Part shown: positions 1-17,406 of the stretch, piece by piece
Position numbering within the stretch: the stretch's first letter is position 1
How the letters are laid out: each line of letters starts with the position of its first letter
IMG/VR virus record: IMGVR_UViG_3300021959_007301
Location: 23,243 to 87,242 of that record
Origin: a virus
DNA: 64,000 nt
Reading direction: 5' to 3' (one strand)
The notes under the pieces: generated by a model
The model's input: only the letters and a program-made list of their open reading frames with translations
Told to the model about the DNA's origin: nothing
Databases searched by the model: none
Translations under genes and position numbers: made by a program

Positions 1-652
1 ACCTGAAGGTTATATCAACGGTACAGTATATAATAGAAGAACTGCTGGAGAGATTATCGCATTGAACGATAACGTGTTCTTCTCATATCCAAGTGTCGTT
101 GCATCAAGAATCAATGAACAGAATGAGATGTCTTCGAACAGGTCATTTAGATGTGCTTTACAATTAGTGTCAGGTAATTCAAACCTTTCACCAGTTGTAG
201 ACTTAAGTTCATTGGGTGCAATTGCAATTGCAAACAGATTAAACGGATTAAATTCAAGTGATGCAGAAACCATTTCAATCTCAACCGATTCAGAAGGTGA
301 AGATAATGCAATGTGTTACATCACTAAGAAAGTTAACTTGAAAGCACCTGCATCAGGATTAAGGGTGACTGCAGATATCTTTAGACCTGCAACGACAGAC
401 GTTAAGGTCATGTATAAGATTATCAAAAACGATGAAGAATCTGCAATCGATGATATCGGTTTTGAATTCTTCAACAGTGATGGTTCACCTGATACAGTAA
501 TTGATGCAGATGCAAGAAACTTTAAAGAGTATGAATTCAGTGTAGATGACCTACCTGAATTTAGTGGGTTCATCATTAAGATTGTAGGAAGAGGATACAA
601 TACATCAACAGTACCATTGGTATCTGCATTGAGATGTATTGCAGTTGCATAA
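1..652 (+). CDS. C-terminal part of a large baseplate-associated structural protein (VrlC/DUF4815-like), truncated by the window start
   Basis: Open frame ending in EYEF...FIIKIV...VPLVSALRCIAVA, a C-terminus typical of this protein in marine T4-like phages. Confidence 0.65.
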   Translation, partial: PEGYINGTVYNRRTAGEIIALNDNVFFSYPSVVASRINEQNEMSSNRSFRCALQLVSGNSNLSPVVDLSSLGAIAIANRLNGLNSSDAETISISTDSEGEDNAMCYITKKVNLKAPASGLRVTADIFRPATTDVKVMYKIIKNDEESAIDDIGFEFFNSDGSPDTVIDADARNFKEYEFSVDDLPEFSGFIIKIVGRGYNTSTVPLVSALRCIAVA

Positions 653-864
653 TGTCTGATTATATTAAAGTAGAAGGTGCAACACATTTATATAGAGACG
701 ATAGTTCTCAAGCAATCGTGTCTACTGATATTGAACAGTGGAGACTTGCAAAGAAAAGAAAAGAGATTTTTAGGAATCAGGTAAACGAGATAAATACATT
801 AAAAGAAGAGATGGGTGAAATTAAGTCTCTCTTAACTGAACTCATGGGGAAATTAAGTGGCTAG
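652..864 (+). CDS. Small conserved hypothetical protein with coiled-coil C-terminus
   Basis: ATG overlaps the upstream TAA; MSDYIKVEG...LYRD...AIV...EINTLKEEMGEIKSLL. Confidence 0.7.
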   Translation: MSDYIKVEGATHLYRDDSSQAIVSTDIEQWRLAKKRKEIFRNQVNEINTLKEEMGEIKSLLTELMGKLSG

Positions 865-1972
865 AACAGTAGACAATCACAGTACATTAGAAGATTTTAG
901 ACGTAATTATAATGACCTCGCTAATGACGTTGGTGACAGGTCAGGTCTTAGAACTGAAAAACAAAGTACTATCGTAGATGCAATTAATAGTATCGAAGAT
1001 AAGTCGTTCTTCTTTCAGGAGTTTATCTATACTGCTGGAACACATGGTTCTACACTTTCAAGATACGAAGGTGTTGATGCATTCAGCAATACATTATCTT
1101 TTAAACCTAACAGAATTCAAGTCTTTAAAAACACTCAACACTTAATTGAAGGTGATGATTATTCTATTGGGCCTGTGTCAGATGGTCTTGCAGATAGAAT
1201 TGATTTAGTTGTTGCTGCAACTAATGGTGATAAGATTACTGTTTATGCATTCACTGGTTCATACTTAGGTGTTGTCGGTGATGGTGCAACCTCAACATAC
1301 TTTACAGAAACTGCATTAAACACTATTTACAATAATAATGATAACGGTATTATTTTAAATGGTGATGGTGCTGATAAAACCGTTGCACTAGAGACAGGAT
1401 ATACAATTCAATTTGCAGGAAGAGTGTATGGTGAAGATGACCTTACACTTGCAAGTGGAACAACATTCACTTTTGACACTGCAACAAACGGAACACTTAC
1501 TTTAGATGGTGGTGCTATTACAGGTGCAACCTCTATTACATCAACTGCATTTGTTGGTGATGTCACTGGTCAAGTATCAGACATTACTAATCATAGTGTA
1601 AATAGTCTTTCAGACATTAACACCACTGGTGCAACAAACGGTCAGTTATTAATTTATAATGTTTCAACAGGTGATTGGGAAGCAGGTGATGCACCTGCAA
1701 ACTACACAGATGAACAAGCACAAGATGCAGCTGCATCTATGATTACAAGTGCAACTCACAGTAACATAACTGTTACTTATGATGATAATGCAGGAACATT
1801 ATCATTTTCTGCTGCTGCTCAATATGGTGACTCTGATGTAGATGCACACTTAAGTGGTAGTAACGGTGTTAGTTACAGTTCAGGTAGTATTAGTTTAGAT
1901 TATGAGACCACATCTACTGCACCTTCAGGTGTAGGTAGTACTGCAACTGGTCATTTATGGTTTGTGATATGA
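857..1972 (+). CDS. Baseplate/tail fibre-like structural protein
   Basis: N-terminal TLEDFRRNYN motif, G/S/T-rich fibre repeats, C-terminal TAPSG...GHLWF motif. Confidence 0.7.
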   Translation: MARTVDNHSTLEDFRRNYNDLANDVGDRSGLRTEKQSTIVDAINSIEDKSFFFQEFIYTAGTHGSTLSRYEGVDAFSNTLSFKPNRIQVFKNTQHLIEGDDYSIGPVSDGLADRIDLVVAATNGDKITVYAFTGSYLGVVGDGATSTYFTETALNTIYNNNDNGIILNGDGADKTVALETGYTIQFAGRVYGEDDLTLASGTTFTFDTATNGTLTLDGGAITGATSITSTAFVGDVTGQVSDITNHSVNSLSDINTTGATNGQLLIYNVSTGDWEAGDAPANYTDEQAQDAAASMITSATHSNITVTYDDNAGTLSFSAAAQYGDSDVDAHLSGSNGVSYSSGSISLDYETTSTAPSGVGSTATGHLWFVI

Positions 1973-1973
1973 T

Positions 1974-3188
1974 ATGGCTGATGAAATCTATATAAACACA
2001 GGGTCGAGTTTTCAACAACCGTACCAAGGTCAATCTGTAAGAAATGCTCAATCGCTAGAAGTCAGACAGACTCCTGCACAGACTCCTGCAAACGCAAGAC
2101 AACCTAGTACGTATCAAAACAGACAACCGTTTACCTACAGAAGTCCTGTAAATGCACAGACACCATTTATAAGAAACGCTCAGCAACCCTTTACATACCA
2201 AAACCAAGGTAGAACACCTTTTACCTATAACTATCGTTCTCCGTTCACGTATGCACGTCAGGGACAGACTCCTTTCACGTATGCAAGACAGGGTAGAACA
2301 CCATATGTTGCAAATGCACAACAACCGTATCCTTATATCGCAAATAGTCAGACTCCATACATTGCTAATGCTCAACAACCCTATCCGTACATAGCAAACA
2401 AACAGAGTCCATACATTGCAAATGGTCAGAGTCCATACATTGCAAATGCTCAGTCACCTTATATTGCAAACGCTCAACAACCGTATCCGTACATTGCATC
2501 GTATCAAAGTCCGTTTACCTATAATCATAGACAACCGTTTACCTATGCAAGACAGGGTAGGTCACCATTTACGTATAGTAATCAACAACCTTACCCATAT
2601 ATTGCACAGACACCTTATACGTTTAATGCAACTGGAACACAAAGCATCAGTCCTCTAGACCAATCTTGGGGCCCATCAGGTGCAAGTCCATGGGTTCCTC
2701 GTCAAAGTGTTAACTCTTCAGGATTCCCTGAAGCATTCGCAACAATGGGGTTTAGTTTAGACACTACAAATAACCAAGTCGATGTTAGCTGGAAAGCTGG
2801 TACTTCAGCACAAATGGCAACAGTGTATACCGACTCAATTAATTATCAGTCTCCAGTAACAGATTCTTCAACATTTGAATGTAAATATACAGTATCTCAG
2901 CAATCGTGTTCAGGTAATTGTATGAGTGGTGCATTTGGGCCCACACCAGTTACCGATGGGTATAATTCAGGAACATATTATTCACTCACAACATTTGGTT
3001 GGATGGCAAAGGTTAATCCAAACTATGGTTCGTCCTTTTCAAGGGTTGAAACTGGTATTGGTGGCACATATGGTGTAACATTTACAGTCCGTGCAACTCC
3101 TTCAGGAAGTAGTGACAGTTATATTACAACTTATACTTCAGGTGGAATAGAACTGATTGCATCTACAGGACAGTTTAACGAGAACTAA
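1974..3188 (+). CDS. P/Q/Y/T-rich repeat protein A1 with ~190-aa C-terminal globular domain (putative fibre strand plus tip domain)
   Basis: Tandem QQPYPYIANA / RQPFTY / ARQGQTP units followed by a non-repetitive domain. Confidence 0.8.
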   Translation: MADEIYINTGSSFQQPYQGQSVRNAQSLEVRQTPAQTPANARQPSTYQNRQPFTYRSPVNAQTPFIRNAQQPFTYQNQGRTPFTYNYRSPFTYARQGQTPFTYARQGRTPYVANAQQPYPYIANSQTPYIANAQQPYPYIANKQSPYIANGQSPYIANAQSPYIANAQQPYPYIASYQSPFTYNHRQPFTYARQGRSPFTYSNQQPYPYIAQTPYTFNATGTQSISPLDQSWGPSGASPWVPRQSVNSSGFPEAFATMGFSLDTTNNQVDVSWKAGTSAQMATVYTDSINYQSPVTDSSTFECKYTVSQQSCSGNCMSGAFGPTPVTDGYNSGTYYSLTTFGWMAKVNPNYGSSFSRVETGIGGTYGVTFTVRATPSGSSDSYITTYTSGGIELIASTGQFNEN

Positions 3189-3190
3189 AA

Positions 3191-4006
3191 ATGGCAGAGT
3201 TGCAAACCACACAACAACCGTATCCTTATATTGCACAAGGTCAAACACCTTATGCATTGCAGGGTAGAACGCCTTATATTGCTAATGCACAGCAACCGTA
3301 TCCTTATATTGCGAATGCACAAAGTCCATATATTGCTAATGCAAGACAACCTGTAACCTATGCAAGACAGGGTCAAACACCGTTTACGTATCAGAGTAGA
3401 CAACCATTTACTTATCAGAACAGACAACCGTTTACATATCAAAATAGACAACCTGTTACCTATGCACGTCAAGGTCAAACACCATTTACCTATAGTAACA
3501 GACAACCTGCAACGTATGCTAGACAAGGTAGAACACCTTTCACGTATAACAATCAACAACCTTATCCGTACATTGCAAATGCTCAACAACCCTATCCGTA
3601 CATTGCAAATGCACAGGAACCAAATATTAGGTCTGCACAACAGGCATATCCTTACATTGCAAATGCAAGGAATCCGTTTACCTATCAACATAGGTCACCT
3701 TCTACATATAGAAACCCTGTAAATGCACAGAGTCCGTATATTGCAAATAGTCAAACACCATTTACCTATCAAGTTGCATATCAGATTCCTTATACTATAA
3801 GGTCACCATTTACCTATCAAGTATCCTACCCAACTACAAGAACCGTTGGGCCAGTTGCAAAGGTTAAAGGTGTTTTTGTGAATGATAGTGGAACACTTAG
3901 AAAACTTGATGAAGTATATGTAAACGATGGTGGAACATTAGAAAAAATTCACCAGTCCGTTCCTACTGCAAGATTCTCTAAGAATCCAAGTAACACGAGT
4001 GTATAA
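3191..4006 (+). CDS. P/Q/Y/T-rich repeat protein B1 with C-terminal VFVNDSGT/VYVNDGGT adaptor-like motif
   Basis: Same repeat vocabulary as A1, in mirrored order. Confidence 0.8.
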   Translation: MAELQTTQQPYPYIAQGQTPYALQGRTPYIANAQQPYPYIANAQSPYIANARQPVTYARQGQTPFTYQSRQPFTYQNRQPFTYQNRQPVTYARQGQTPFTYSNRQPATYARQGRTPFTYNNQQPYPYIANAQQPYPYIANAQEPNIRSAQQAYPYIANARNPFTYQHRSPSTYRNPVNAQSPYIANSQTPFTYQVAYQIPYTIRSPFTYQVSYPTTRTVGPVAKVKGVFVNDSGTLRKLDEVYVNDGGTLEKIHQSVPTARFSKNPSNTSV

Positions 4007-4009
4007 ATA
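4002..4009 (+). promoter_or_regulatory. T4-type late promoter TATAAATA
   Basis: Exact T4 gp55 late consensus just upstream of ATG 4015. The TAAATA core recurs before many genes (about 5475, 8375, 9240, 12924, 17412, 17692, 23147, 25730, 28394, 31187, 31462, 36039, 39755, 50695, 51612, 59120). Confidence 0.75.
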
Positions 4010-4014
4010 GTATT

Positions 4015-4347
4015 ATGGCGATAATTGCAAACATATACATAGACCAAGGTACTGATTTTTCCATTACTGTAGACGTTACAGATTCTGCAGGGGAAGTTTT
4101 AGAATTAAGTGGTTACACTGCAACTGCACAAGTGAGAAGAACTTATACCTCATCTACAGTTGCTGCAACCTTTGATACGTCTATTGCAGAATTAGCAGGA
4201 CAGGTGACTATCTCGTTAACCGATACTGTAACTGCAGGACTGGAAGGTGGAAGATACGTGTATGACCTAAATATTGAAAGCAGTGCTGGTCAGAAAACTC
4301 GTGTTATAGAAGGACAAGCAATTGTCACACCAGGCGTAACGAGGTAA
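4015..4347 (+). CDS. Small Ig-like virion protein (BppU N-terminal-like fibre anchor)
   Basis: NIYIDQGTDF...GRYVYDL...RVIEGQAIVTPGVT, a common motif pattern in T4-like fibre regions. Confidence 0.7.
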   Translation: MAIIANIYIDQGTDFSITVDVTDSAGEVLELSGYTATAQVRRTYTSSTVAATFDTSIAELAGQVTISLTDTVTAGLEGGRYVYDLNIESSAGQKTRVIEGQAIVTPGVTR

Positions 4348-4351
4348 TAAA

Positions 4352-4570
4352 ATGGCAGGAAATATTAAAGCAAGAGTATTAACAAACAATACAATTCGTG
4401 CAAAACAGGTTGCAGTTGGTAACTCATCAACTAATGTAAACTTGTCTGCAAAATCTATTAACGAACTTGCAGATGTTAACGTAATTGAAACAGATGAAGG
4501 TGTATTGAAGTATAACGCTACTACAGACAAGTGGGAAACCTCTAATGTTTTAGATGGTGGAACTTTTTAG
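4352..4570 (+). CDS. Small structural linker protein ending in LDGGTF
   Basis: ORF with RBS; LADV...GVLKYN...KW fibre motif. Confidence 0.65.
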   Translation: MAGNIKARVLTNNTIRAKQVAVGNSSTNVNLSAKSINELADVNVIETDEGVLKYNATTDKWETSNVLDGGTF

Positions 4571-4586
4571 ATAATTTAAAAAATTT

Positions 4587-5468
4587 ATGTTATGTTCACG
4601 TGACGAGTGGTCTCCACTACGTGAGATTGTTGTAGGGACACTCAAAGGATTTCAAAAACAAGACAATTATTCAGAGTATCATACTACTGAATTCATATAC
4701 GATATATTTGTTGAGGCAGAAGAAGGACTTAACAAATTTGTTAATATTCTAGAATCCAATAATGTAAAGGTTTACAGACCTAATGGAATGTGTTATAATG
4801 TTAGGGATTGTGCTGTCGTCATAGATGATGTTATAGTTGAAGGGTCTATGCGATATGAAAAAGAGTACGGAAATCTATCTACACTTAAAAAAATATTTTT
4901 TGAAAAATGGTCTGAAGGATACACATGGATATCAGGCCCCAAACCTTCTTGGAATTCAGAATTTGATATTATTTTTGATGGTGCAAATATCTGTAGACTG
5001 GGAGATAATCTACTCATTGCAACAAACGAAACTGCAAATCGATATGGAAGATTGTGGTTAGAAAAACAATTTCCTAATAAAAATATTGATTACATTTCTC
5101 TAAGAGATAACATATCACACATAGACACAACTATTGTTCCCATATCAGAGGGTACAGTTATGATTAATGCTAACAGAGTCAACAAAGACAATGTACCAGT
5201 ATTTTTTAAAGATTGGGACATTATTTGGATACATGATGAGGATATCGTAGAGGAGAGACCTGTCATTAAAGACGAGATAGCAGGAAAAATGATTGGTATG
5301 AATACTCTTTCTCTTAATCATAATACACTGTTTGTGAATGAAAGTCAAGTAAAATTAATGGATAAATTGGGTAAGAAAGGATTTAATTGTATACCTGTAC
5401 CTCTAAGATACACACGTGAGTTATCAGGTGGACTACATTGTTGCACTTTAGACCTCGTTAGAGGTTAA
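4587..5468 (+). CDS. Amidinotransferase (glycine / inosamine-phosphate amidinotransferase family)
   Basis: EWSPLREIVVG start, RD, FDGAN, HIDTT and GGLHCCTLD motifs (Asp-His-Cys triad). Confidence 0.85.
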   Translation: MLCSRDEWSPLREIVVGTLKGFQKQDNYSEYHTTEFIYDIFVEAEEGLNKFVNILESNNVKVYRPNGMCYNVRDCAVVIDDVIVEGSMRYEKEYGNLSTLKKIFFEKWSEGYTWISGPKPSWNSEFDIIFDGANICRLGDNLLIATNETANRYGRLWLEKQFPNKNIDYISLRDNISHIDTTIVPISEGTVMINANRVNKDNVPVFFKDWDIIWIHDEDIVEERPVIKDEIAGKMIGMNTLSLNHNTLFVNESQVKLMDKLGKKGFNCIPVPLRYTRELSGGLHCCTLDLVRG

Positions 5469-5497
5469 AGATGTTATAAATACTAGTACAAATCAAG

Positions 5498-5574
5498 GTG
5501 TCATTCAGTGAGACACGACCCACATGGTGAGTGGACAGGTATATAATGGTCTTCTAGGGATATGTGAACTAGAA
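5498..5574 (+). ncRNA. Candidate structured 5' leader RNA ahead of the fibre gene
   Basis: Stems GTGTC/GACAC, GACC/GGTC (or CCAC/GTGG) and TTCTAG/CTAGAA between late promoter 5475 and RBS. Confidence 0.35.
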
Positions 5575-5613
5575 TAAGCTTATTTAAATTAAACACATTT
5601 TAGGAGAAATAAA

Positions 5614-7029
5614 ATGGCAACAGTAATTCAAATTAAAAGAAGTACTGGGGTTTCTGCACCTACTACGTCAGACCTTTCAGAAGGAGAATTGGCGTATATT
5701 CAGGACAGAAGTAACAGTGGTGCTGGTGCAAAACTTTTCATAGAATCAGTTGACTCCGACAATAGTACTCCATTAATCCATGCGATTGGTGGTAAGTTCT
5801 ATACCGATATTATTGATGGTTCATCTGCTACACCAGCAGATTTCAAAGTCGGTAACGGTTCAACATCAGGTGGTTCTGTAAAGTTTTACGAAGATTCGGA
5901 CAATGGTGTTCACTTCGTTGCACTTAAGTCGCCAGACTCAGTCGCTTCAGACTTAACTTTTGTACTTCCAGCATCAGATGGTAGTGCAAACCAAGTATTA
6001 GGAACAGACGGTTCAGGTAACCTATCTTTCCTTTCAACAACATCAACACTTGCAGGTGCATCTGACTCAGATATCTCTACTCCATCATCAGGACAAATCC
6101 TTGTTCATGACGGTTCAGATTCATTTGACAACGTAACACTAAGTGGAGACGTGACACTTGCATCTAATGGTGCAGTCACAATCGCTTCTAACGCAGTTGA
6201 AGTCGGTATGATTGACTTCTTAGTTGACGAAGATGACATGAACTCTGATTCAGATGTCAAAGTCCCTTCACAACAATCTGTTAAAGCATACGTTGATTCA
6301 CAAGTAACTGCTCAAGATTTAGACGTTGCTGGTGATTCAGGAACAGGTGCAATTGATTTAGATTCACAATCATTAACGATTGCTGGTACATCTAATGAGA
6401 TTGAAACATCTGCTTCAGGACAAACAATAACAATCGGTTTACCTAATGACGTAACAGTAGGAAATGACCTAACAGTTACAGGAAACTTAACAGTTTCAGG
6501 AACAACCACAACTGTAGACTCAACAACAGTATCAATTGCAGACCCTGTATTTGAAATTGGTGACGATTCTGCAGACGACAACCTCGATAGAGGTATTAAA
6601 TTCAAATATAACGATGGATCTGCTAAAGTAGGTTTCTTCGGTATGGACGAATCTAATGAGAAGTTCGTAGCATTACATGATGCAACAGACAGTTCTTCAG
6701 TATTCACAGGTACAGCAATGGATGCAGTATTTGGTGGATTAGAAGCAACAGGTCTTGCATTATCAGGTTCAATTACTTCAGTCGATGGTGCAGCTCCAAC
6801 TGCAGGTCAATTATTAATTGGTAACGGTTCTAACGGAGACATGGAACTTGCAGCTCTAACTGCAGGCTCTAACGGTGTAACAATCACCAACGCAGACGGT
6901 TCTATAACTATTGAAAATGCGATTGCTTCTACATCACAAGTTGGTGTGGCATCATTTGCTTCTTCAGAGTTCTCAGTAACTGGTGCTGGTGAAGTTTCTA
7001 TCTCCAACATAGACGGTGGTTCATTCTAA
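5614..7029 (+). CDS. Tail fibre-like protein
   Basis: IQIKRS...GELA N-terminal module, GNLTVSGTTTTV repeats, C-terminal IDGGSF. Confidence 0.8.
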   Translation: MATVIQIKRSTGVSAPTTSDLSEGELAYIQDRSNSGAGAKLFIESVDSDNSTPLIHAIGGKFYTDIIDGSSATPADFKVGNGSTSGGSVKFYEDSDNGVHFVALKSPDSVASDLTFVLPASDGSANQVLGTDGSGNLSFLSTTSTLAGASDSDISTPSSGQILVHDGSDSFDNVTLSGDVTLASNGAVTIASNAVEVGMIDFLVDEDDMNSDSDVKVPSQQSVKAYVDSQVTAQDLDVAGDSGTGAIDLDSQSLTIAGTSNEIETSASGQTITIGLPNDVTVGNDLTVTGNLTVSGTTTTVDSTTVSIADPVFEIGDDSADDNLDRGIKFKYNDGSAKVGFFGMDESNEKFVALHDATDSSSVFTGTAMDAVFGGLEATGLALSGSITSVDGAAPTAGQLLIGNGSNGDMELAALTAGSNGVTITNADGSITIENAIASTSQVGVASFASSEFSVTGAGEVSISNIDGGSF

Positions 7030-7058
7030 CAATAATTAATCGTTTATAGGAGTAGCAA

Positions 7059-7883
7059 ATGGCAACAGTAATTCAATTTAAGAGAAGTTCGACTCAAGGT
7101 TCTTCGCCGACCACTGGTGATTTATCACTCGGTGAATTAGCGATTAATACATATCATGGTAGGGTCTATACTGAGGCAGATAATGGAACAGCTTCTATTG
7201 TAGAAGTTGGTTCAAATCCTGCAACTCTTACTGTTAACGATGCGTACTCTTTTCCAACAAGTGATGGTAACTCTAACGAAGCATTAACAACTGATGGTTC
7301 AGGACAGTTAAGTTTCACTGCACTTCCTTCATCAGGAATTGAAACTTTCACCTATTCAATCACATCTACTGGTACAGGTATCAGTGGTGCAGATGATAAT
7401 TCAAACACACTTCAGTACCAAGTAGGTTCTGAACAAGTTTTTATTAATGGTGTTAAGTTAATAAGTGGTTCAGACTATACTGCAACTTCATCAACCGTAA
7501 TAACCCTTGCAGAAAATGCTGTAAATGGTGATACAGTTGAAGTCGTTGCAATAACCGACACACAAAATCTTGTGCAAGGTTATTATACGGCTAACACTTT
7601 CAGTGCAACAACTGCTGACCAAGTTTTATCATCCAATGGAGTCGCAAACAAAGCGATTAAGTATGTTATAAATGCAACTCACGCCTCTGCAGGAACACAT
7701 GCTGCAGAAGTATTGTTGATTAACGATGGTACGAATGCATATTTCATCCAATACGGTGACGTGTATTCATCATCATCATTGTTCTCACTTAGTTCAGATG
7801 TGAATTCAGGTAACATGAGACTTCTCATTACACCTGCAAACACTGACACTACAGTTGATACTTTCCAAATTAGGCATTCATAG
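7059..7883 (+). CDS. Fibre/virion structural protein
   Basis: IQFKRS...GELA N-terminus; C-terminal KY...DGTNAY...QYG...RLLITPA domain. Confidence 0.75.
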   Translation: MATVIQFKRSSTQGSSPTTGDLSLGELAINTYHGRVYTEADNGTASIVEVGSNPATLTVNDAYSFPTSDGNSNEALTTDGSGQLSFTALPSSGIETFTYSITSTGTGISGADDNSNTLQYQVGSEQVFINGVKLISGSDYTATSSTVITLAENAVNGDTVEVVAITDTQNLVQGYYTANTFSATTADQVLSSNGVANKAIKYVINATHASAGTHAAEVLLINDGTNAYFIQYGDVYSSSSLFSLSSDVNSGNMRLLITPANTDTTVDTFQIRHS

Positions 7884-7896
7884 GAGGAGATGAATA

Positions 7897-8307
7897 ATGG
7901 CAAAGACAAAAGCATTTGAAATTGCAGAATTGATTAGACACCTTCGATATGATGCTGATACAGACGAGATTGTAACTGATAAGGTAACTCAAGACAAAAA
8001 CAAAAAGAGGGGTAATGCAACAAAAACCTCTACTGACGAATTTGCTCTTGATACTTTTGCAAAATCAGATTACAGAGCTGGACGATATATCGTTGCAATG
8101 TCTGAAGGATCAAAGTATCACTCAACTGAAATCGTGTTAGTTCACGATGGAAGTAGTGTAACAATGACACAATATGGCACACTTAAATCACACTCGTTAG
8201 CAACCTTTGATGCAGACATTTCAGGATCAGACGTAAGACTGCTCGTGACACCTGCATCCACAAGTTCTACAGTGATTAAATTCGATAGAACAGTAGTCGA
8301 AGCATAA
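7897..8307 (+). CDS. Virion structural protein with the shared C-terminal beta domain
   Basis: LDTF...YR...TEIVLVHDG...QYG...DISGSDVRLLVTPAS. Confidence 0.7.
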   Translation: MAKTKAFEIAELIRHLRYDADTDEIVTDKVTQDKNKKRGNATKTSTDEFALDTFAKSDYRAGRYIVAMSEGSKYHSTEIVLVHDGSSVTMTQYGTLKSHSLATFDADISGSDVRLLVTPASTSSTVIKFDRTVVEA

Positions 8308-11101: not shown

Positions 11102-12073
11102 ATGGCGTCAGGTAATCAAAGCGTAAAAACACCTACAGGGTGGAGTGCTACAAGAGGTGCATGGGTAAAAACTGCACAAGGTACTTGGAGTGCTGTAAAA
11201 CAAATTTACATCAAAACTCCTACTGGTTGGAATGACGCTTCAGGTCAAGAGTTAACTCAACAACCTTATCCGTACATTGCAAATGGTCAGTATCCATATA
11301 TTGCTAATGCACAACAACCTTATCCGTACATTGCAAATGGACAAACACCATATATTGCAGATGCACAACAACCTTATCCTTATATAGCAAATGCACAATC
11401 ACCATATATTGCTGATGCACAACAACCTTATCCTTACATTGCAAATGCACAGTCACCTTATATTGCAAATGGTCAGACACCATTTACGTATCAACATAGA
11501 CAACCATTTACATATGCTAGACAAGGTCAGACACCATTTACGTATCAACATAGACAACCTGTAACATATGCTAGACAAGGACAAACTCCTTTCACATATC
11601 AAAACAGACAACCGTTTACCTATCAACATAGGTCACCGTTTACCTATCAACATAGGTCACCGTTTACATACAACCATAGGTCTCCATTTACATACAGAAA
11701 CCCTGTGTCTGCACAAGAACCTAATATTAGAAATGGTCAAACACCGTTCACTTATAGTGCAAGGTATCCTGCAAATGCTCGATATCCAGCAAACGGTCAA
11801 ACACCGTTCACTTATAGTGCAAGGTATCCTGCAAATGCAAGACAACCAGTAGCATTTAGGTCACCGTTTACATATCGTGTACCTTATATTGCTAATGCAA
11901 GACAACCAAACAGTGCAAGGAACCCATTTACCTATCGTGTGCCTTATATTGCAAACGCAAGACAACCAAGTACAGCACAACAACCGTATACGTATAACTT
12001 CAGACAGAATGTTGTATACTTCTACGGTGGTGGTGGCGGCGGTGGCGGTTTCTTCCCACAACAATTGAAATAA
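11102..12073 (+). CDS. P/Q/Y/T-rich repeat protein A2 with N-terminal VKT..GW adaptor-like motif and C-terminal Gly8
   Basis: Translation; repeat units of 6, 8 and 10 aa. Confidence 0.8.
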   Translation: MASGNQSVKTPTGWSATRGAWVKTAQGTWSAVKQIYIKTPTGWNDASGQELTQQPYPYIANGQYPYIANAQQPYPYIANGQTPYIADAQQPYPYIANAQSPYIADAQQPYPYIANAQSPYIANGQTPFTYQHRQPFTYARQGQTPFTYQHRQPVTYARQGQTPFTYQNRQPFTYQHRSPFTYQHRSPFTYNHRSPFTYRNPVSAQEPNIRNGQTPFTYSARYPANARYPANGQTPFTYSARYPANARQPVAFRSPFTYRVPYIANARQPNSARNPFTYRVPYIANARQPSTAQQPYTYNFRQNVVYFYGGGGGGGGFFPQQLK

Positions 12074-12091: not shown

Positions 12092-12919
12092 ATGGCAACA
12101 GGTTTTTATAGGACGATAACAACAGGAAATGCGAGAAGCACGATAAACGTGCAGACTCCGTTTACCTATAATGCTAGGTATCCTGCATCAGCACAACAAC
12201 CGTTTACGTTCCAAAACCCATTTACGTATTCCAATAGATATCCTGCATCAGCACAACAACCTGTAACTTATCGGTCACCGTTTACATATCGTGTGCCTTA
12301 TATTGCTAATGCAAGACAACCGTTTACCTATAGAGTACCATTTACATATAGGGTTCCTTATATTGCTAATGCAAGACAACCGTTTACATACAACTATAGG
12401 TCACCATTTACCTATAGAAACCCTGTGTCTGCACAAGAACCAAATATAAGGTCTGCACAAGAACCAAATATAAGGTCAGCACAAGAACCTAACATTAGAA
12501 ATGCACAAAGTCCATATATTGCATCAGCACAACAACCGTACCCATATATTGCAAATGCACAATCGCCTTATATTGCTAATGCACAACAACCGTATCCTTA
12601 CATTGCAAATGGACAATACCCATATATTGCTAGTGCAAGACAACCGTTTACATATCAACATAGACAACCAGTGACATATGCAAGACAGGGTCAAACACCT
12701 TTCACCTATCAGCATAGACAACCAGTGACATATGCAAGACAGGGTCAAACACCTTTCACCTATCAAAATAGACAACCATTTACTTATGCACGTCAAGGTC
12801 AAACACCATTTACCTATCAACATAGACAACCGTTTACCTATGCAAGACAGGGTAGAACTCCAGTTGCAAGATGGGATGGTGAATTATCACAACAGTGGCC
12901 TGCAACACCTATTTCCTAG
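12092..12919 (+). CDS. P/Q/Y/T-rich repeat protein B2
   Basis: Repeat units are the reverse-order counterpart of A2. Confidence 0.8.
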   Translation: MATGFYRTITTGNARSTINVQTPFTYNARYPASAQQPFTFQNPFTYSNRYPASAQQPVTYRSPFTYRVPYIANARQPFTYRVPFTYRVPYIANARQPFTYNYRSPFTYRNPVSAQEPNIRSAQEPNIRSAQEPNIRNAQSPYIASAQQPYPYIANAQSPYIANAQQPYPYIANGQYPYIASARQPFTYQHRQPVTYARQGQTPFTYQHRQPVTYARQGQTPFTYQNRQPFTYARQGQTPFTYQHRQPFTYARQGRTPVARWDGELSQQWPATPIS

Positions 12920-15121: not shown

Positions 15122-15844
15122 ATGTCTGATTTTGATATTGTGTACTTGGATGAACCATTCAAGGTCACAGAACTACCACTTAAAAAAATCTATGTAATTG
15201 ATGACTATCTATGTACAGAATTACATCATCATATAGATAAAATTTTAACCAATAGTTCTATATGGTCTAAGACCAATCAAGTAAGCAGTAGAAATCCCAC
15301 AGGATTACCACATCATAGTTTTTGGGGTGCAAGTTTTCTTAGAGAGGATGAAAGATTAGAACAAGGTCAAGATGAATATCACTCCTATATACCTTTATGG
15401 TTTAACCGAAGAATCCAAACTGACTTTCAATTTAAGTGGATTAGATTTCAATACATGGGATTGAATAGTCAGACACAAGGATTACATGGAACCACTCACT
15501 CTGATTGTGCTGACCATGATGAATGGAATCTATCTTTTTTATATTACTATAATAGATTTTGGAACAAGGAGTGGGGTGGAAATTTAAGATTTTATGATGA
15601 ACCACAGTTTGGACTTCAAGGTAGAGACGAACACATTAAAAACCATCAGATAGGTGAAGTTGAATTCAAACCTAATAGGTTATTAATGTTTGATGGTAGA
15701 ATACCACATGGTGCAGATGCACCAACACCTAAAGCAAAATATGTAGACAGAAGGTCAATTGTTCTTAGAGGTGACGAGGTTCAATTAATAGATAGTGAGG
15801 AAATGTTTAGTGCCAACGATAGAGTTCACAACATACGATACTGA
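15122..15844 (+). CDS. 2OG-Fe(II) oxygenase
   Basis: HSD...W..EWGG.L...FKPNRLLMFDGRIPH...R. Confidence 0.8.
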   Translation: MSDFDIVYLDEPFKVTELPLKKIYVIDDYLCTELHHHIDKILTNSSIWSKTNQVSSRNPTGLPHHSFWGASFLREDERLEQGQDEYHSYIPLWFNRRIQTDFQFKWIRFQYMGLNSQTQGLHGTTHSDCADHDEWNLSFLYYYNRFWNKEWGGNLRFYDEPQFGLQGRDEHIKNHQIGEVEFKPNRLLMFDGRIPHGADAPTPKAKYVDRRSIVLRGDEVQLIDSEEMFSANDRVHNIRY

Positions 15845-16712
15845 AACAACAAAAAACTTTAGACCTGTTTTAGCAAGAAAATACCAACCACATTGGTGGA
15901 AACGTGCTAAAGTTGGAATGGACGTTAGAAATAAGAAGACGACTACTATTCGTGCATGTCCTGCTATGGATGATTGGTTAAAGAGTGGGTGGTATTTAAT
16001 TGCAAATAGAGATTTGCATGTTAAGTTTGGAAGAACTCCTGAAACTAATGATGACCATTCTAGAGGTCATGTTGTAGATAATGGTGATTATGCATCACCT
16101 TCGCACCCCTCAGAACAAATGGCAGGTGCATTTCAATACTTAGATAATGAAGGCCCGATTAAAGATGCCTTTAAAATGAGAAATCCATGGAACGTAGTTA
16201 CACCTCCAGGCTATTCTTGTTTTTACTTAGACCCCTTTCTTTTTCAAAATAGATACTTTGCAACTTGGCAAGGAATTATAGATACCGATAAATTCAATAA
16301 GAATATGGACAATGCACAGATAATCTTTTATCCAAAGGTGAATCATTCATTTACTATAAAAGAAGGAACTCCTTTGTGTCAAGTGATTCCATATAAAAGA
16401 GAAGAGTGGAATGCAAGTTATATTCAATACGACCACAAATCATTCACAGAAAATAGGTCATCCGTTACATCACATCATTCACAAGAAGATGGAACAGGTG
16501 CAACAATGGATGAGTGGGTTAGAAAACCAGGCCTATCTGAATCAGATAGAGCAGAAAATTTAACTAGTGGTGGATATAGAAAAGGTGAATATTGGACACC
16601 TAAAGGCAAGTTTTATAAAGAAGAATCTCCACCACCTGAGTGTCCATTTCATGTAAGCGAAAACGATGATAGTGGAGAACATCAACTGGAGTTAGATTTA
16701 GATGGCAGTTAG
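15810..16712 (+). CDS. Hypothetical protein (DUF6065-like, often found beside phage oxygenases)
   Basis: RACPAM.D...GW, NPWNVVTPPGYS...GIIDTD...GTPLCQVIP; GTG start after GAGG. Confidence 0.65.
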   Translation: MPTIEFTTYDTETTKNFRPVLARKYQPHWWKRAKVGMDVRNKKTTTIRACPAMDDWLKSGWYLIANRDLHVKFGRTPETNDDHSRGHVVDNGDYASPSHPSEQMAGAFQYLDNEGPIKDAFKMRNPWNVVTPPGYSCFYLDPFLFQNRYFATWQGIIDTDKFNKNMDNAQIIFYPKVNHSFTIKEGTPLCQVIPYKREEWNASYIQYDHKSFTENRSSVTSHHSQEDGTGATMDEWVRKPGLSESDRAENLTSGGYRKGEYWTPKGKFYKEESPPPECPFHVSENDDSGEHQLELDLDGS

Positions 16713-17406
16713 ATTACTATTTCCTAATTTTGTATTTGAAAGAAACTTATTAGACCCAAACTTGGATAAAAGAAGAGGAATAACTAATGAGTATCTTCAA
16801 CAGTGTGTAGATGCAATAGATGGTATGAGAAGAAAAGACCCTGAAGGTAGAAGAGTATCTAATGCATATACTGGTTGGCAATCAAACGATGGGTGTGAAT
16901 CAAATCCAATTTTACAACAGTTAATGAGAAAAATAGAACAACTTTTTAAAGATGAAGTATTTCCTTTTCATGGATTAGACCAAACAAAAACATCGATACA
17001 TATTGGTAACTCTTGGGCTAACGTAAACGATTTCTCTGCATGGAATAAACCACATATGCATAATGGATGTTGGTATAGTGGTGTGTTTTATATAAAGGGA
17101 GACGGTGATGAAGGTTGCATAGATATGGTCGATAAAGATGTTAAGGTTGTGTCTGATTTTCCACATTCACCTCGGGCGCCAGGTTCTATGAGTTATGCAC
17201 CCACATCAGGTATGTTAATTTTATTTCCTAGTGGATTGATGCATATGGTAGAACCCAACATGACAGATAAAGACCGATACAGCATTTCATTCAATATGGT
17301 AGTTAAATACCATGGTGATGGAGGTCAATTTGGTGAACCACAAAACTACCATCCTGATGAATTTCTTTTTGAAATAGACGAAAACGGTGACCCTATAATG
17401 GGTTGA
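16702..17406 (+). CDS. Putative 2OG-Fe(II) oxygenase (TIGR02466-like)
   Basis: SN..GWQS, WANVN...HMH...SGVFY, LILFPSGLMH.V...RYSISFN. Confidence 0.8.
   Translation: MAVRLLFPNFVFERNLLDPNLDKRRGITNEYLQQCVDAIDGMRRKDPEGRRVSNAYTGWQSNDGCESNPILQQLMRKIEQLFKDEVFPFHGLDQTKTSIHIGNSWANVNDFSAWNKPHMHNGCWYSGVFYIKGDGDEGCIDMVDKDVKVVSDFPHSPRAPGSMSYAPTSGMLILFPSGLMHMVEPNMTDKDRYSISFNMVVKYHGDGGQFGEPQNYHPDEFLFEIDENGDPIMG

What the first reader, a model, noticed from the sequence alone, without database searches (positions are those of the whole stretch)
1974..4006. Second, independent mirror-image repeat pair (A1/B1) using the same code but a different unit order
Seen: B1 (3191) units run 10,8,8,10,8,8,8,10,8,10,10,10,8,10,8, and A1 (1974) read backwards gives the same 15-unit series. 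All seven 10-mers obey the rule QQPYP/QQAYP opposite ARQG/QNQG, and QEPNIR lies opposite YRSP. The same boundary shift at the 8-to-6 transition occurs as in pair 2. The order differs from pair 2, so each pair has its own barcode. Inference: the barcode keeps A1 with B1 and A2 with B2 and sets the length (about 176 repeat residues, roughly 55-60 nm if extended). Replication in two loci argues against chance.
Basis: partly seen in the sequence, partly recalled or inferred. Interest (0 to 1): 0.9.

Follow-up and report, generated by a model that had tools for sequence, protein, structure and literature searches.

The report
Mirror-coded two-protein phage fibre stalk
Two neighbouring genes of an uncultured marine T4-like phage encode repeat proteins that match unit for unit when one is read backwards, which points to a two-chain antiparallel fibre stalk held in register by a pairing code that I could not find described.

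Summary
Cutting A1 (1974-3188) and B1 (3191-4006) before each repeat proline gives units of 6, 8 or 10 residues. A1 read N->C equals B1 read C->N for 20 consecutive units, reached by 0 of 20,000 shuffles. PFTY-type units always face PYIA/PNIR-type units.

The rule holds across the family:
- All 49 of 49 distinct adjacent gene pairs score far above unit-order shuffles, z 10-41.
- Thirteen internal unit changes between related pairs are each matched at the mirrored place in the partner.
- Residue covariation lies on the anti-diagonal.
- Eight natural single-chain fusions carry both arms around a middle domain.

Best reading: an antiparallel two-chain stalk, most likely beta-type, about 160 residues long. 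It has a conserved docking end and a variable beta-sandwich tip.

No physical test was possible: the complex predictor was unavailable, and AlphaFold2 failed on a fusion. I found no paper describing this. The scan had already noted the same design in other genomes.

The parts
857..1972 (+). Upstream fibre-like gene (371 aa). Its stop codon lies 1 nt before the A1 start.
   Evidence: ORF and junction. A homologue lies upstream of the A gene in 57 of 80 related loci. Pfam gives no hit; one weak PHROG hit of unknown function.
1974..3188 (+). A1 gene (404 aa): conserved N-terminus, repeat arm, C-terminal tip domain.
   Evidence: No Pfam or PHROG family.
1974..2084 (+). A1 N-terminal non-repeat part (aa 1-37), the conserved end.
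   Evidence: The first 20 aa have a median identity of 55% over 29 relatives, against 23% for the C-terminal domain.
2103..2588 (+). A1 repeat arm that mirrors B1 (aa 44-205; 19 class-complementary units, 20 by length alone).
2646..3185 (+). A1 C-terminal 180-aa domain, the variable tip. Predicted as an all-beta sandwich.
   Evidence: AlphaFold2 with 23 sequences: pLDDT 85.9, pTM 0.82. No PDB match at E<=0.001. Best BFVD match is an uncharacterised Caudovirales protein, E 5.9e-6.
3191..4006 (+). B1 gene (271 aa): short N-terminus, repeat arm, conserved C-terminal motif. Its start lies 2 nt after the A1 stop.
3272..3757 (+). B1 repeat arm that mirrors A1 (aa 28-189).
3848..4003 (+). B1 C-terminal 52 aa, the conserved end, carrying a duplicated short beta-hairpin-like motif.
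   Evidence: Median identity of 63% over 29 relatives. Matches phrog_13729 at aa 223-256, E 4.6e-6, function unknown.
4015..4347 (+). LtfC-like beta-sandwich gene (110 aa) directly after B1. Likely belongs to the same fibre module.
   Evidence: phrog_3304 'L-shaped tail fiber protein assembly', E 5e-23. PF23926 at E 0.0011, below its cut-off. Found directly after the B gene in 62 of 80 loci.
4352..4570 (+). Conserved 72-aa ORF that follows the LtfC-like gene.
   Evidence: Present in 61 of 80 loci.
11102..12073 (+). A2, first chain of the second mirror pair in the same window.
12092..12919 (+). B2, partner of A2 (30 mirrored units, 234 residues per chain).

Best explanation
A1 and B1 are the two chains of one thin fibre stalk of a T4-like marine myovirus. 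Their repeat arms lie side by side in opposite directions, unit against unit.

What the sequences show:
- Every PFTY-type unit (6, 8 or 10 residues) faces a PYIA/PNIR/PxxAxx-type unit of the same length.
- Within a unit pair of length L, position i of one chain faces position L-i of the other. Large aromatics (F, Y) face small residues (A, G, V). Q faces T/S, E faces S, H faces N, R faces Q, and Pro faces R/Q.
- All prolines sit on one parity.

What I infer:
- The chains are extended beta-type strands forming a two-stranded antiparallel ribbon, or a bundle of such ribbons (for example three hairpin-like AB pairs).
- The arm would be about 55 nm long for pair 1 if fully extended.
- The order of unit lengths and types works as a barcode. 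It fixes the register, sets the length, and lets A1 find B1 rather than B2.
- The end holding the A N-terminus and the B C-terminal motif is conserved and probably docks on the virion.
- The other end carries the variable A1 beta-sandwich and probably meets the host.
- The genes are adjacent and probably translationally coupled, which would give equal amounts of both chains.
For: (1) Mirror order. 20 units in pair 1 and 30 in pair 2 have equal length antiparallel, reached by 0 of 20,000 shuffles each. Types are complementary in 19 of 20 and 30 of 30.

(2) Family-wide rule. 243 IMG/VR loci encode relatives and 80 were fetched. In 49 of 49 distinct adjacent pairs the antiparallel contact score exceeds all 100 unit-order shuffles, z 10.4-40.6. 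The matrix was trained only on pairs less than 0.5 similar. Parallel scores are 12-30. One pair (L055) has 68 of 68 units of equal length, 500 residues per chain.

(3) Compensatory change. In five comparisons of related pairs, 13 internal unit insertions, deletions or replacements in A are each matched by a complementary change at the mirrored place in B. No internal change is unmatched. This includes two changes between the window's pair 1 and its relative L004.

(4) Residue covariation lies on the anti-diagonal, i+j = L, for L = 6, 8 and 10. The tables are clean: F faces A/G in 169 of 169 cases listed, A/G faces S in 17 of 18, N or A faces Y in 124 of 124, and R faces R in only 8 of 112.

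(5) Eight natural single-chain proteins join an A-type N-terminus to a B-type C-terminus. Their two arms have equal length (104-150 aa) and pair antiparallel at z 9-18 under a matrix learned from two-gene pairs only. A middle of 126-155 aa stays unpaired.

(6) Pro-Pro spacing is even in 3,050 of 3,069 cases over 90 proteins, against 47.8% after shuffling. This fits a 2-residue beta repeat, not a 3-residue polyproline helix.

(7) Polarity. Median identity is 55% for the A N-terminus and 63% for the B C-terminus, against 23% for the A C-terminal domain.

(8) Context. The genes lie among fibre genes, with 1-2 nt junctions. An LtfC-like gene follows B in 62 of 80 loci.
Against: - There is no physical evidence of binding, of the fold, of the stoichiometry or of presence in virions.
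- The complex predictor was not available.
- AlphaFold2 gave no usable model of a natural fusion: pLDDT 30.9.
- I designed the unit parser and the class labels after seeing the data. With simple parsers, only 18-21 of 40 A proteins ranked their own neighbour first. The divergent subfamilies became clear only with the residue-level contact matrix.
- The mutual-information values are inflated by shared ancestry and by unit subtypes.
- Many of the 49 pairs are related to one another, so independent lineages are fewer than 49.
- An isolated two-stranded ribbon of 160-500 residues would be unusual, so a higher-order bundle is likely but undefined.
- The parser mildly favours even units, which may slightly raise the 99.4% figure.
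Confidence: 0.75

Rival explanations
1. The arms pair antiparallel as proposed, but not as a beta ribbon. They would use another extended conformation, such as polyproline-II-like strands or a mixed stalk like the streptococcal antigen I/II A/P stalk.
For: Both arms are about 14% Pro. AlphaFold2 predicted no strands in the arms. A hairpin stalk built from two different repeat types, with a variable head at the tip, exists in antigen I/II proteins (passages seen in PMC3178794).
Against: Pro-Pro spacing is even in 99.4% of cases and units are 6, 8 or 10 residues long. This is a period of 2, not 3. Covariation links positions of the same parity on both faces. There is no Ala-rich helical arm.
Confidence: 0.15
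2. A and B do not touch each other. Each lines up along a third component, or they form separate homo-oligomers, and the mirrored order reflects a symmetric template or a shared ruler.
For: No binding data exist. Known phage fibres are usually parallel homotrimers (my own knowledge).
Against: - A template would not need complementary unit types or residue-level size and charge compensation between A and B.
- A template would not predict compensatory indels at mirrored places.
- A template would not predict single-chain fusions whose two arms have equal length.
Confidence: 0.07
3. The mirror is a by-product of low-complexity sequence, chance or a DNA-level inverted duplication. It has no structural meaning.
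For: The arrays are low-complexity, and the antisense frames are open over them.
Against: - 0 of 20,000 shuffles reach the observed run in either pair.
- No inverted DNA repeat exceeds 16 nt.
- The antisense translation bears no likeness to the partner.
- The rule holds in 49 of 49 pairs with different unit orders.
Confidence: 0.01

Closest known systems
Needle domain of the T4 long-tail-fibre tip, gp37
   Same: A thin phage fibre part made of antiparallel beta strands in which chains run out to a head and come back. [quoted passage not shown] 2010). Three AB pairs, or three fused hairpins, could give the same strand count.
   Different: - gp37 is one protein forming a homotrimer, whereas here two different chains (or a fused hairpin) carry complementary repeat codes.
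- No sequence likeness: the PDB sequence searches found no relative, with B1 giving no match at E<=1 and A1 four weak matches to unrelated proteins.
- No HxH motifs in the arms (0 in all four). That HxH iron sites are a gp37 feature is recalled, not from a call.
- The arms here are far longer, at 162-500 residues.
Streptococcal antigen I/II stalk (A region with P region)
   Same: Two different repeat regions associate into a long stalk that projects a variable head away from the anchor (passages seen in PMC3178794). This is the topology of the eight fused forms found here.
   Different: - Antigen I/II is a single bacterial surface protein whose stalk pairs an alpha-helix with a polyproline helix.
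- Here both arms are Pro-punctuated with period 2, and they sit on two genes in most cases.
- Here the unit order varies and is matched unit by unit.
Repeat shafts of phage and virus fibres (T4 gp5 C-terminal beta-helix with 8-residue repeats; adenovirus triple beta-spiral)
   Same: Short sequence repeats build a long thin beta-structured shaft of a virion appendage.
   Different: - Those shafts are parallel homotrimers with one repeat type and no partner chain. This is my own knowledge; of PMC3004832 I saw only the search listing.
- No Pfam family matches the four proteins.
Heterodimeric coiled-coil zippers and heterotrimeric collagens
   Same: Partner choice and register are written in a periodic sequence code, and different pairs in one cell avoid cross-pairing.
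   Different: - The conformation differs. Pro every 6-10 residues excludes long alpha-helices.
- Gly is 5-7 per arm with no third-residue phase, which excludes collagen.
- The code here uses unit length as well as unit type and is read antiparallel.

Membership tests
T4 gp37-type fibre needle | Sequence relationship to gp37 tip domains | tested here: not met
   phmmer of A1 and B1 against all PDB chain sequences gave no relative. B1 had no match at E<=1; A1 had four weak matches (E 0.1-0.87) to unrelated proteins. No Pfam hit.
T4 gp37-type fibre needle | HxH metal-binding motifs along the needle (feature recalled from memory) | tested here: not met
   0 HxH motifs in the repeat regions of A1, B1, A2 and B2.
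T4 gp37-type fibre needle | Out-and-back chain topology giving antiparallel strands, in a trimer | not testable with these tools
   Out-and-back topology is implied by the mirror and by the 8 fusions. Oligomer state is unknown. The complex predictor was unavailable.
Antigen I/II-type stalk | An Ala-rich alpha-helical repeat region pairing with a Pro-rich polyproline-II region in one chain | tested here: not met
   Both arms have about 14% Pro and 11-12% Ala with Pro at even spacing. There is no helical Ala-rich arm and no Pfam hit.
Collagen-like triple helix | Gly at every third residue | tested here: not met
   5-7 Gly per arm, with at most 4 in one phase of three.
Coiled-coil zipper | Heptad repeats in long alpha-helices | tested here: not met
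   Pro occurs every 2-10 residues through the arms. This is incompatible with long helices (established knowledge).
Known Pfam repeat or beta-solenoid families (pentapeptide, Gp5_C and others) | A match to the family profile | tested here: not met
   0 Pfam families at E<=0.1 for all four proteins.
Phage tail-fibre module (as a location, not a fold family) | Lies among fibre and fibre-assembly genes of a tailed phage | tested here: met
   - The window carries T4-like neck, terminase and sheath genes. The sheath is 51% identical to that of Pelagibacter phage Mosig.
- Flanking ORFs are fibre-like.
- The downstream gene matches phrog_3304, a tail-fibre assembly family, and follows B in 62 of 80 loci.

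The most novel reading that the evidence does not exclude
This would be a natural protein counterpart of nucleic-acid strand complementarity. A modular code has two unit types and three unit lengths, plus residue rules: aromatic-small, Q-T/S, E-S, H-N and R-Q. It programmes two polypeptides to form an antiparallel duplex of defined register, length (about 50 to 165 nm) and partner specificity. The code evolves by compensatory unit insertions and deletions. One phage can carry several orthogonal duplex fibres, and tips can be swapped by recombination because the distal halves of both arms are contiguous in the DNA.
Probability: 0.55. Interest if true: 0.93.

Novelty: categorically new. Interest (0 to 1): 0.88.

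Why it matters
If the two chains do zip together as the sequences imply, this is a new way for nature to build a long thin fibre. It would use two different chains running in opposite directions, with register, length and partner choice written in a readable repeat code, rather than the parallel homotrimer that is usual for phage fibres.

It would explain how abundant uncultured marine T4-like phages carry several fibres of tunable length without mispairing. It would also explain how host-recognition tips can be exchanged.

It offers protein engineers a set of natural, apparently orthogonal and length-programmable heterodimer modules. The hundreds of natural variants already provide a covariation table that can be tested directly at the bench.

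Tried and rejected
Structure
- AlphaFold2 of a natural fusion (P0139, with an 8-sequence alignment) gave pLDDT 30.9 and no information.
- The tip-domain model found no PDB fold at E<=0.001. In BFVD it matched only uncharacterised phage proteins, so the tip's function stays open.

Named relatives
- tblastn against 50,697 GenBank phage records found nothing for B1, for the A1 tip domain or for the B1 C-terminal 64 aa. The low-complexity filter weakens the first of these.
- megablast of window 1-8000 found nothing.
- Pelagibacter phage Mosig has no relative.
- The ESM Atlas gave only viral hypothetical clusters scoring below 0.9.
- Prokaryote genomes gave 2 loci, both on short contigs of one Verrucomicrobiales MAG. 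They are probably viral DNA.

Simple parsers
- Ungapped Pro coincidence ranked the true neighbour first for 21 of 40 A proteins.
- A Pro-only gapped alignment ranked it first for 18 of 40.
- A unit-level alignment ranked it first for 21 of 40.
- Divergent subfamilies break the Pro-start parse, so I replaced these methods with a residue contact matrix.

Hairpins
- A self-hairpin scan of long ORFs in the loci first flagged 719-aa proteins. These proved to be long A2-type chains with periodic units, not fusions.
- P0017 (164 aa) matched the fusion pattern but lacks an A arm. It looks like a deletion or an assembly artefact.

Rejected ideas
- A DNA inverted repeat or an mRNA hairpin as the cause of the mirror.
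- A specific link to the 2OG oxygenases: Mosig has the oxygenase cluster without these proteins.
- A Hint domain in L058's A protein, which I suspected by eye: no Pfam hit.

Literature
- Six searches found nothing on such proteins.
- Passages of PMC7029224 and PMC13730344 were also negative. The 'two-protein chain-like fibre' in the latter is unrelated.
The gene-cluster tables of PMC7029224 might list these proteins.
Full report
**What is there**

The window is part of an 87-kb IMG/VR virus record. It carries T4-like neck, terminase and sheath genes. The sheath protein is 51% identical to that of Pelagibacter phage Mosig, the nearest cultured relative.

Four + strand ORFs carry Pro-punctuated repeats:
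- A1 1974-3188, 404 aa.
- B1 3191-4006, 271 aa.
- A2 11102-12073, 323 aa.
- B2 12092-12919, 275 aa.

None of them matches a Pfam family at E<=0.1. PHROGs matches only short terminal pieces of unknown function. The genes are packed. The upstream fibre-like ORF stops 1 nt before A1, and A1 stops 2 nt before B1. Promoter-like and terminator-like sites are no more frequent than in shuffles.

**Checking the observation**

A script cut the proteins before each unit-initial Pro into units of 6, 8 or 10 residues.

| Comparison | Longest run of equal unit lengths | Shuffles reaching it (of 20,000) |
|---|---|---|
| A1 N->C vs B1 C->N | 20 | 0 (best 18) |
| A2 vs B2, antiparallel | 30 | 0 (best 13) |
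| A1/B1 and A2/B2, parallel | 11 each | not tested |
| A1/B2, antiparallel | 8 | 817 |
| A2/B1, antiparallel | 7 | 7,190 |

Unit types are complementary throughout. PFTY-type units face PYIA-, PNIR- or PxxAxx-type units. All seven 10-mers of pair 1 pair the ..ARQG.. type with the PYPY type.

The 'boundary shift' it reported disappears when units are cut before the first Pro. The matched arms are A1 aa 44-205 and B1 aa 28-189. That is 162 residues each, about 53-57 nm if extended. No DNA inverted repeat longer than 16 nt exists in 1974-4006, so the mirror is not a nucleic-acid feature.

**Relatives**

- IMG/VR holds 243 loci that encode relatives of B1, and 80 were fetched.
- The large protein collection holds 306 relatives of similar length at E<=1e-5 and 140 longer ones at E<=1e-10. 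None has an informative name.
- tblastn with B1, the A1 tip domain and the B1 C-terminus found no relative among 50,697 GenBank phage records, and a search of the Mosig record with B1 found none.
- Prokaryote genomes gave only two short contigs of one MAG.
- The family therefore looks confined to uncultured marine phages.

**Does the mirror hold elsewhere?**

Simple parsers gave a partial answer. Among 38 distinct adjacent pairs, antiparallel Pro coincidence exceeded parallel in 36 and equalled it in 2. The true neighbour ranked first for only 18-21 of 40 A proteins, because Pro is less conserved in divergent subfamilies.

I then derived a residue contact matrix from well-parsed pairs, using position i against position L-i, and scored A against reversed B.
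- The neighbour ranked first for 36 of 40 A proteins.
- Among the 13 pairs not used for training, it ranked first for 9 and second for the other 4.

In a stricter test, each of 49 distinct adjacent pairs was scored with a matrix trained only on pairs less than 0.5 similar.
- All 49 exceeded every one of 100 unit-order shuffles, with z from 10.4 to 40.6.
- Parallel scores were 12-30.
- Many of the 49 are related to each other, so independent lineages are fewer.

The longest case, L055 (719 and 543 aa), has 68 of 68 consecutive units of equal length, 500 residues per chain.

**Compensatory change**

Comparing related pairs unit by unit gave these matched changes:
- Window pair 1 against L004: a deleted PYPY 10-mer and a 10-to-8 change in A are matched by a deleted ..ARQG.. 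10-mer and a 10-to-8 change in B, at the mirrored places.
- L055 against L069: a 6+6 block replaced by 10+8+10 in A is matched by the complementary replacement in B.
- L039 against L073: 2 matched changes.
- L008 against L017: 3 matched changes.
- Window pair 2 against L039: 5 matched changes.

In all, 13 internal changes are matched and none is unmatched. Only units at the very ends differ singly. This is the protein analogue of compensatory base changes in an RNA helix.

**Residue code**

Mutual information between aligned unit pairs lies on the anti-diagonal, at i+j = L and L+2, for units of 6, 8 and 10 residues. It mostly links positions of the same parity. The contingency tables are sharp:
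- F faces A or G; A or G faces S.
- N or A faces Y; H faces N.
- Q faces T/S; S faces E or Q; Y faces V.
- R faces Q and almost never R.

Pro-Pro spacing is even in 3,050 of 3,069 cases over 90 proteins, against 47.8% after residue shuffling. My parser favours even units slightly. A period of two residues fits beta strands, with all prolines on one edge or face. It does not fit a polyproline helix.

**Natural fusions**

Among the 240 fetched proteins, 8 (446-520 aa) join the A-type N-terminus to the B-type C-terminus. Their first arm (from about aa 18) pairs antiparallel with a second arm of the same length (104-150 aa) at z 9-18. A middle of 126-155 aa stays unpaired. The matrix used for this had seen no fusion. 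So the two arms belong to one structure, and the out-and-back topology is natural.

**Polarity and context**

Over 29 pair-1-type relatives, median identities are as follows:
- A N-terminal 20 aa: 55%.
- B C-terminal 52 aa: 63%.
- A C-terminal domain: 23%.

In the antiparallel arrangement the two conserved parts meet at one end and the variable domain sits at the other. That domain folds confidently as a beta sandwich (pLDDT 85.9) with no clear known relative. An LtfC-like gene follows B in 62 of 80 loci.

I read this as a fibre with a docking end and a host-facing tip. This step is inference.

**What could not be shown**

- Binding, fold, stoichiometry and presence in virions all remain untested.
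- AlphaFold2 failed on a fusion, with pLDDT 30.9.

**Comparison with known systems**

The nearest designs are the T4 gp37 needle and the streptococcal antigen I/II stalk.
- The gp37 needle has six antiparallel strands from three out-and-back chains (passage in PMC9659904).
- The antigen I/II stalk has two different repeat regions forming a stalk with a head at the tip (passages in PMC3178794).
- Both leads came from earlier notes of this scan.
- Neither is a relative. There is no sequence match, no HxH motifs, no Ala-rich helix and no Gly periodicity.
- Neither has a variable unit order matched between two chains.

Six literature searches found no description of such proteins.

The scan had already met the same design in other genomes, and the follow-up agents reached the same reading. 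My tests here were made independently of those notes.

**Verdict**

Most likely this is an antiparallel two-chain, beta-type fibre stalk with a pairing barcode (confidence 0.75). It lies far from any described kind of fibre.

Noticed in passing
window 3185-3691 (-), 2055-2378 (-), 12524-12829 (-): Long antisense ORFs (101-168 aa) run across the repeat arrays. Their products are Cys/Ile/Arg/Leu-rich mirror translations of the repeats. They look like by-products of codon composition, not genes.
   Followed up: no
It has no Pfam hit at E<=0.001. It may act on the pair-2 fibre.
   Followed up: partly
window 15122-15844 and 16702-17406: Two 2OG-Fe(II) oxygenases (PF13640, 3.9e-9; PF13759, 1.7e-19) lie close to the Pro-rich pair 2. 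Pro hydroxylation is conceivable. However, Mosig has a similar oxygenase cluster without zipper genes.
   Followed up: partly
L038:993-2750 and many proteins: Many A-type proteins end in a Hint/intein-like domain. In L038, Hom_end_hint matches at E 3.6e-9 over aa 439-492. PF14890, PF14623 and PF01079 are listed for dozens of relatives. Self-cleavage or ligation at the tip end of the stalk is possible.
   Followed up: partly
P0139, P0141, P0154, P0158, P0145, P0157, P0003, P0004: These are single-chain versions of the A+B pair, with a Q/P/Y-rich middle of 126-155 aa in place of the beta-sandwich tip.
   Followed up: yes
L021:4881-6762: In this pair, by eye, the tip-proximal block of A and that of B are parallel homologues of each other with equal total length. 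The rest (12 units) is mirror-complementary. The block may be a self-complementary segment.
   Followed up: no
L007:4588-6720: Two 9-residue units in B face 8-residue units in A (by eye). They would be one-residue bulges, rare exceptions to the even-length rule.
   Followed up: no
L090, L091 (NYWG01000077.1, NYWG01000101.1): These are the only prokaryote-genome hits. They are two short contigs (7.9 and 9.6 kb) binned into a Verrucomicrobiales MAG. They are probably phage DNA, but possibly a host hint.
   Followed up: no
window 11102-11260 and 3848-4003: The N-terminus of A2 and the C-terminus of B1 carry a similar short duplicated motif (G-W/V-K-type beta-hairpin-like). It sits at the conserved end of each pair (sequences).
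   Followed up: partly
window 12020-12073: A2 ends in a run of eight Gly, just before the 18-nt gap to B2. It looks like a flexible turn at the tip end of pair 2, which has no globular tip domain.
   Followed up: no
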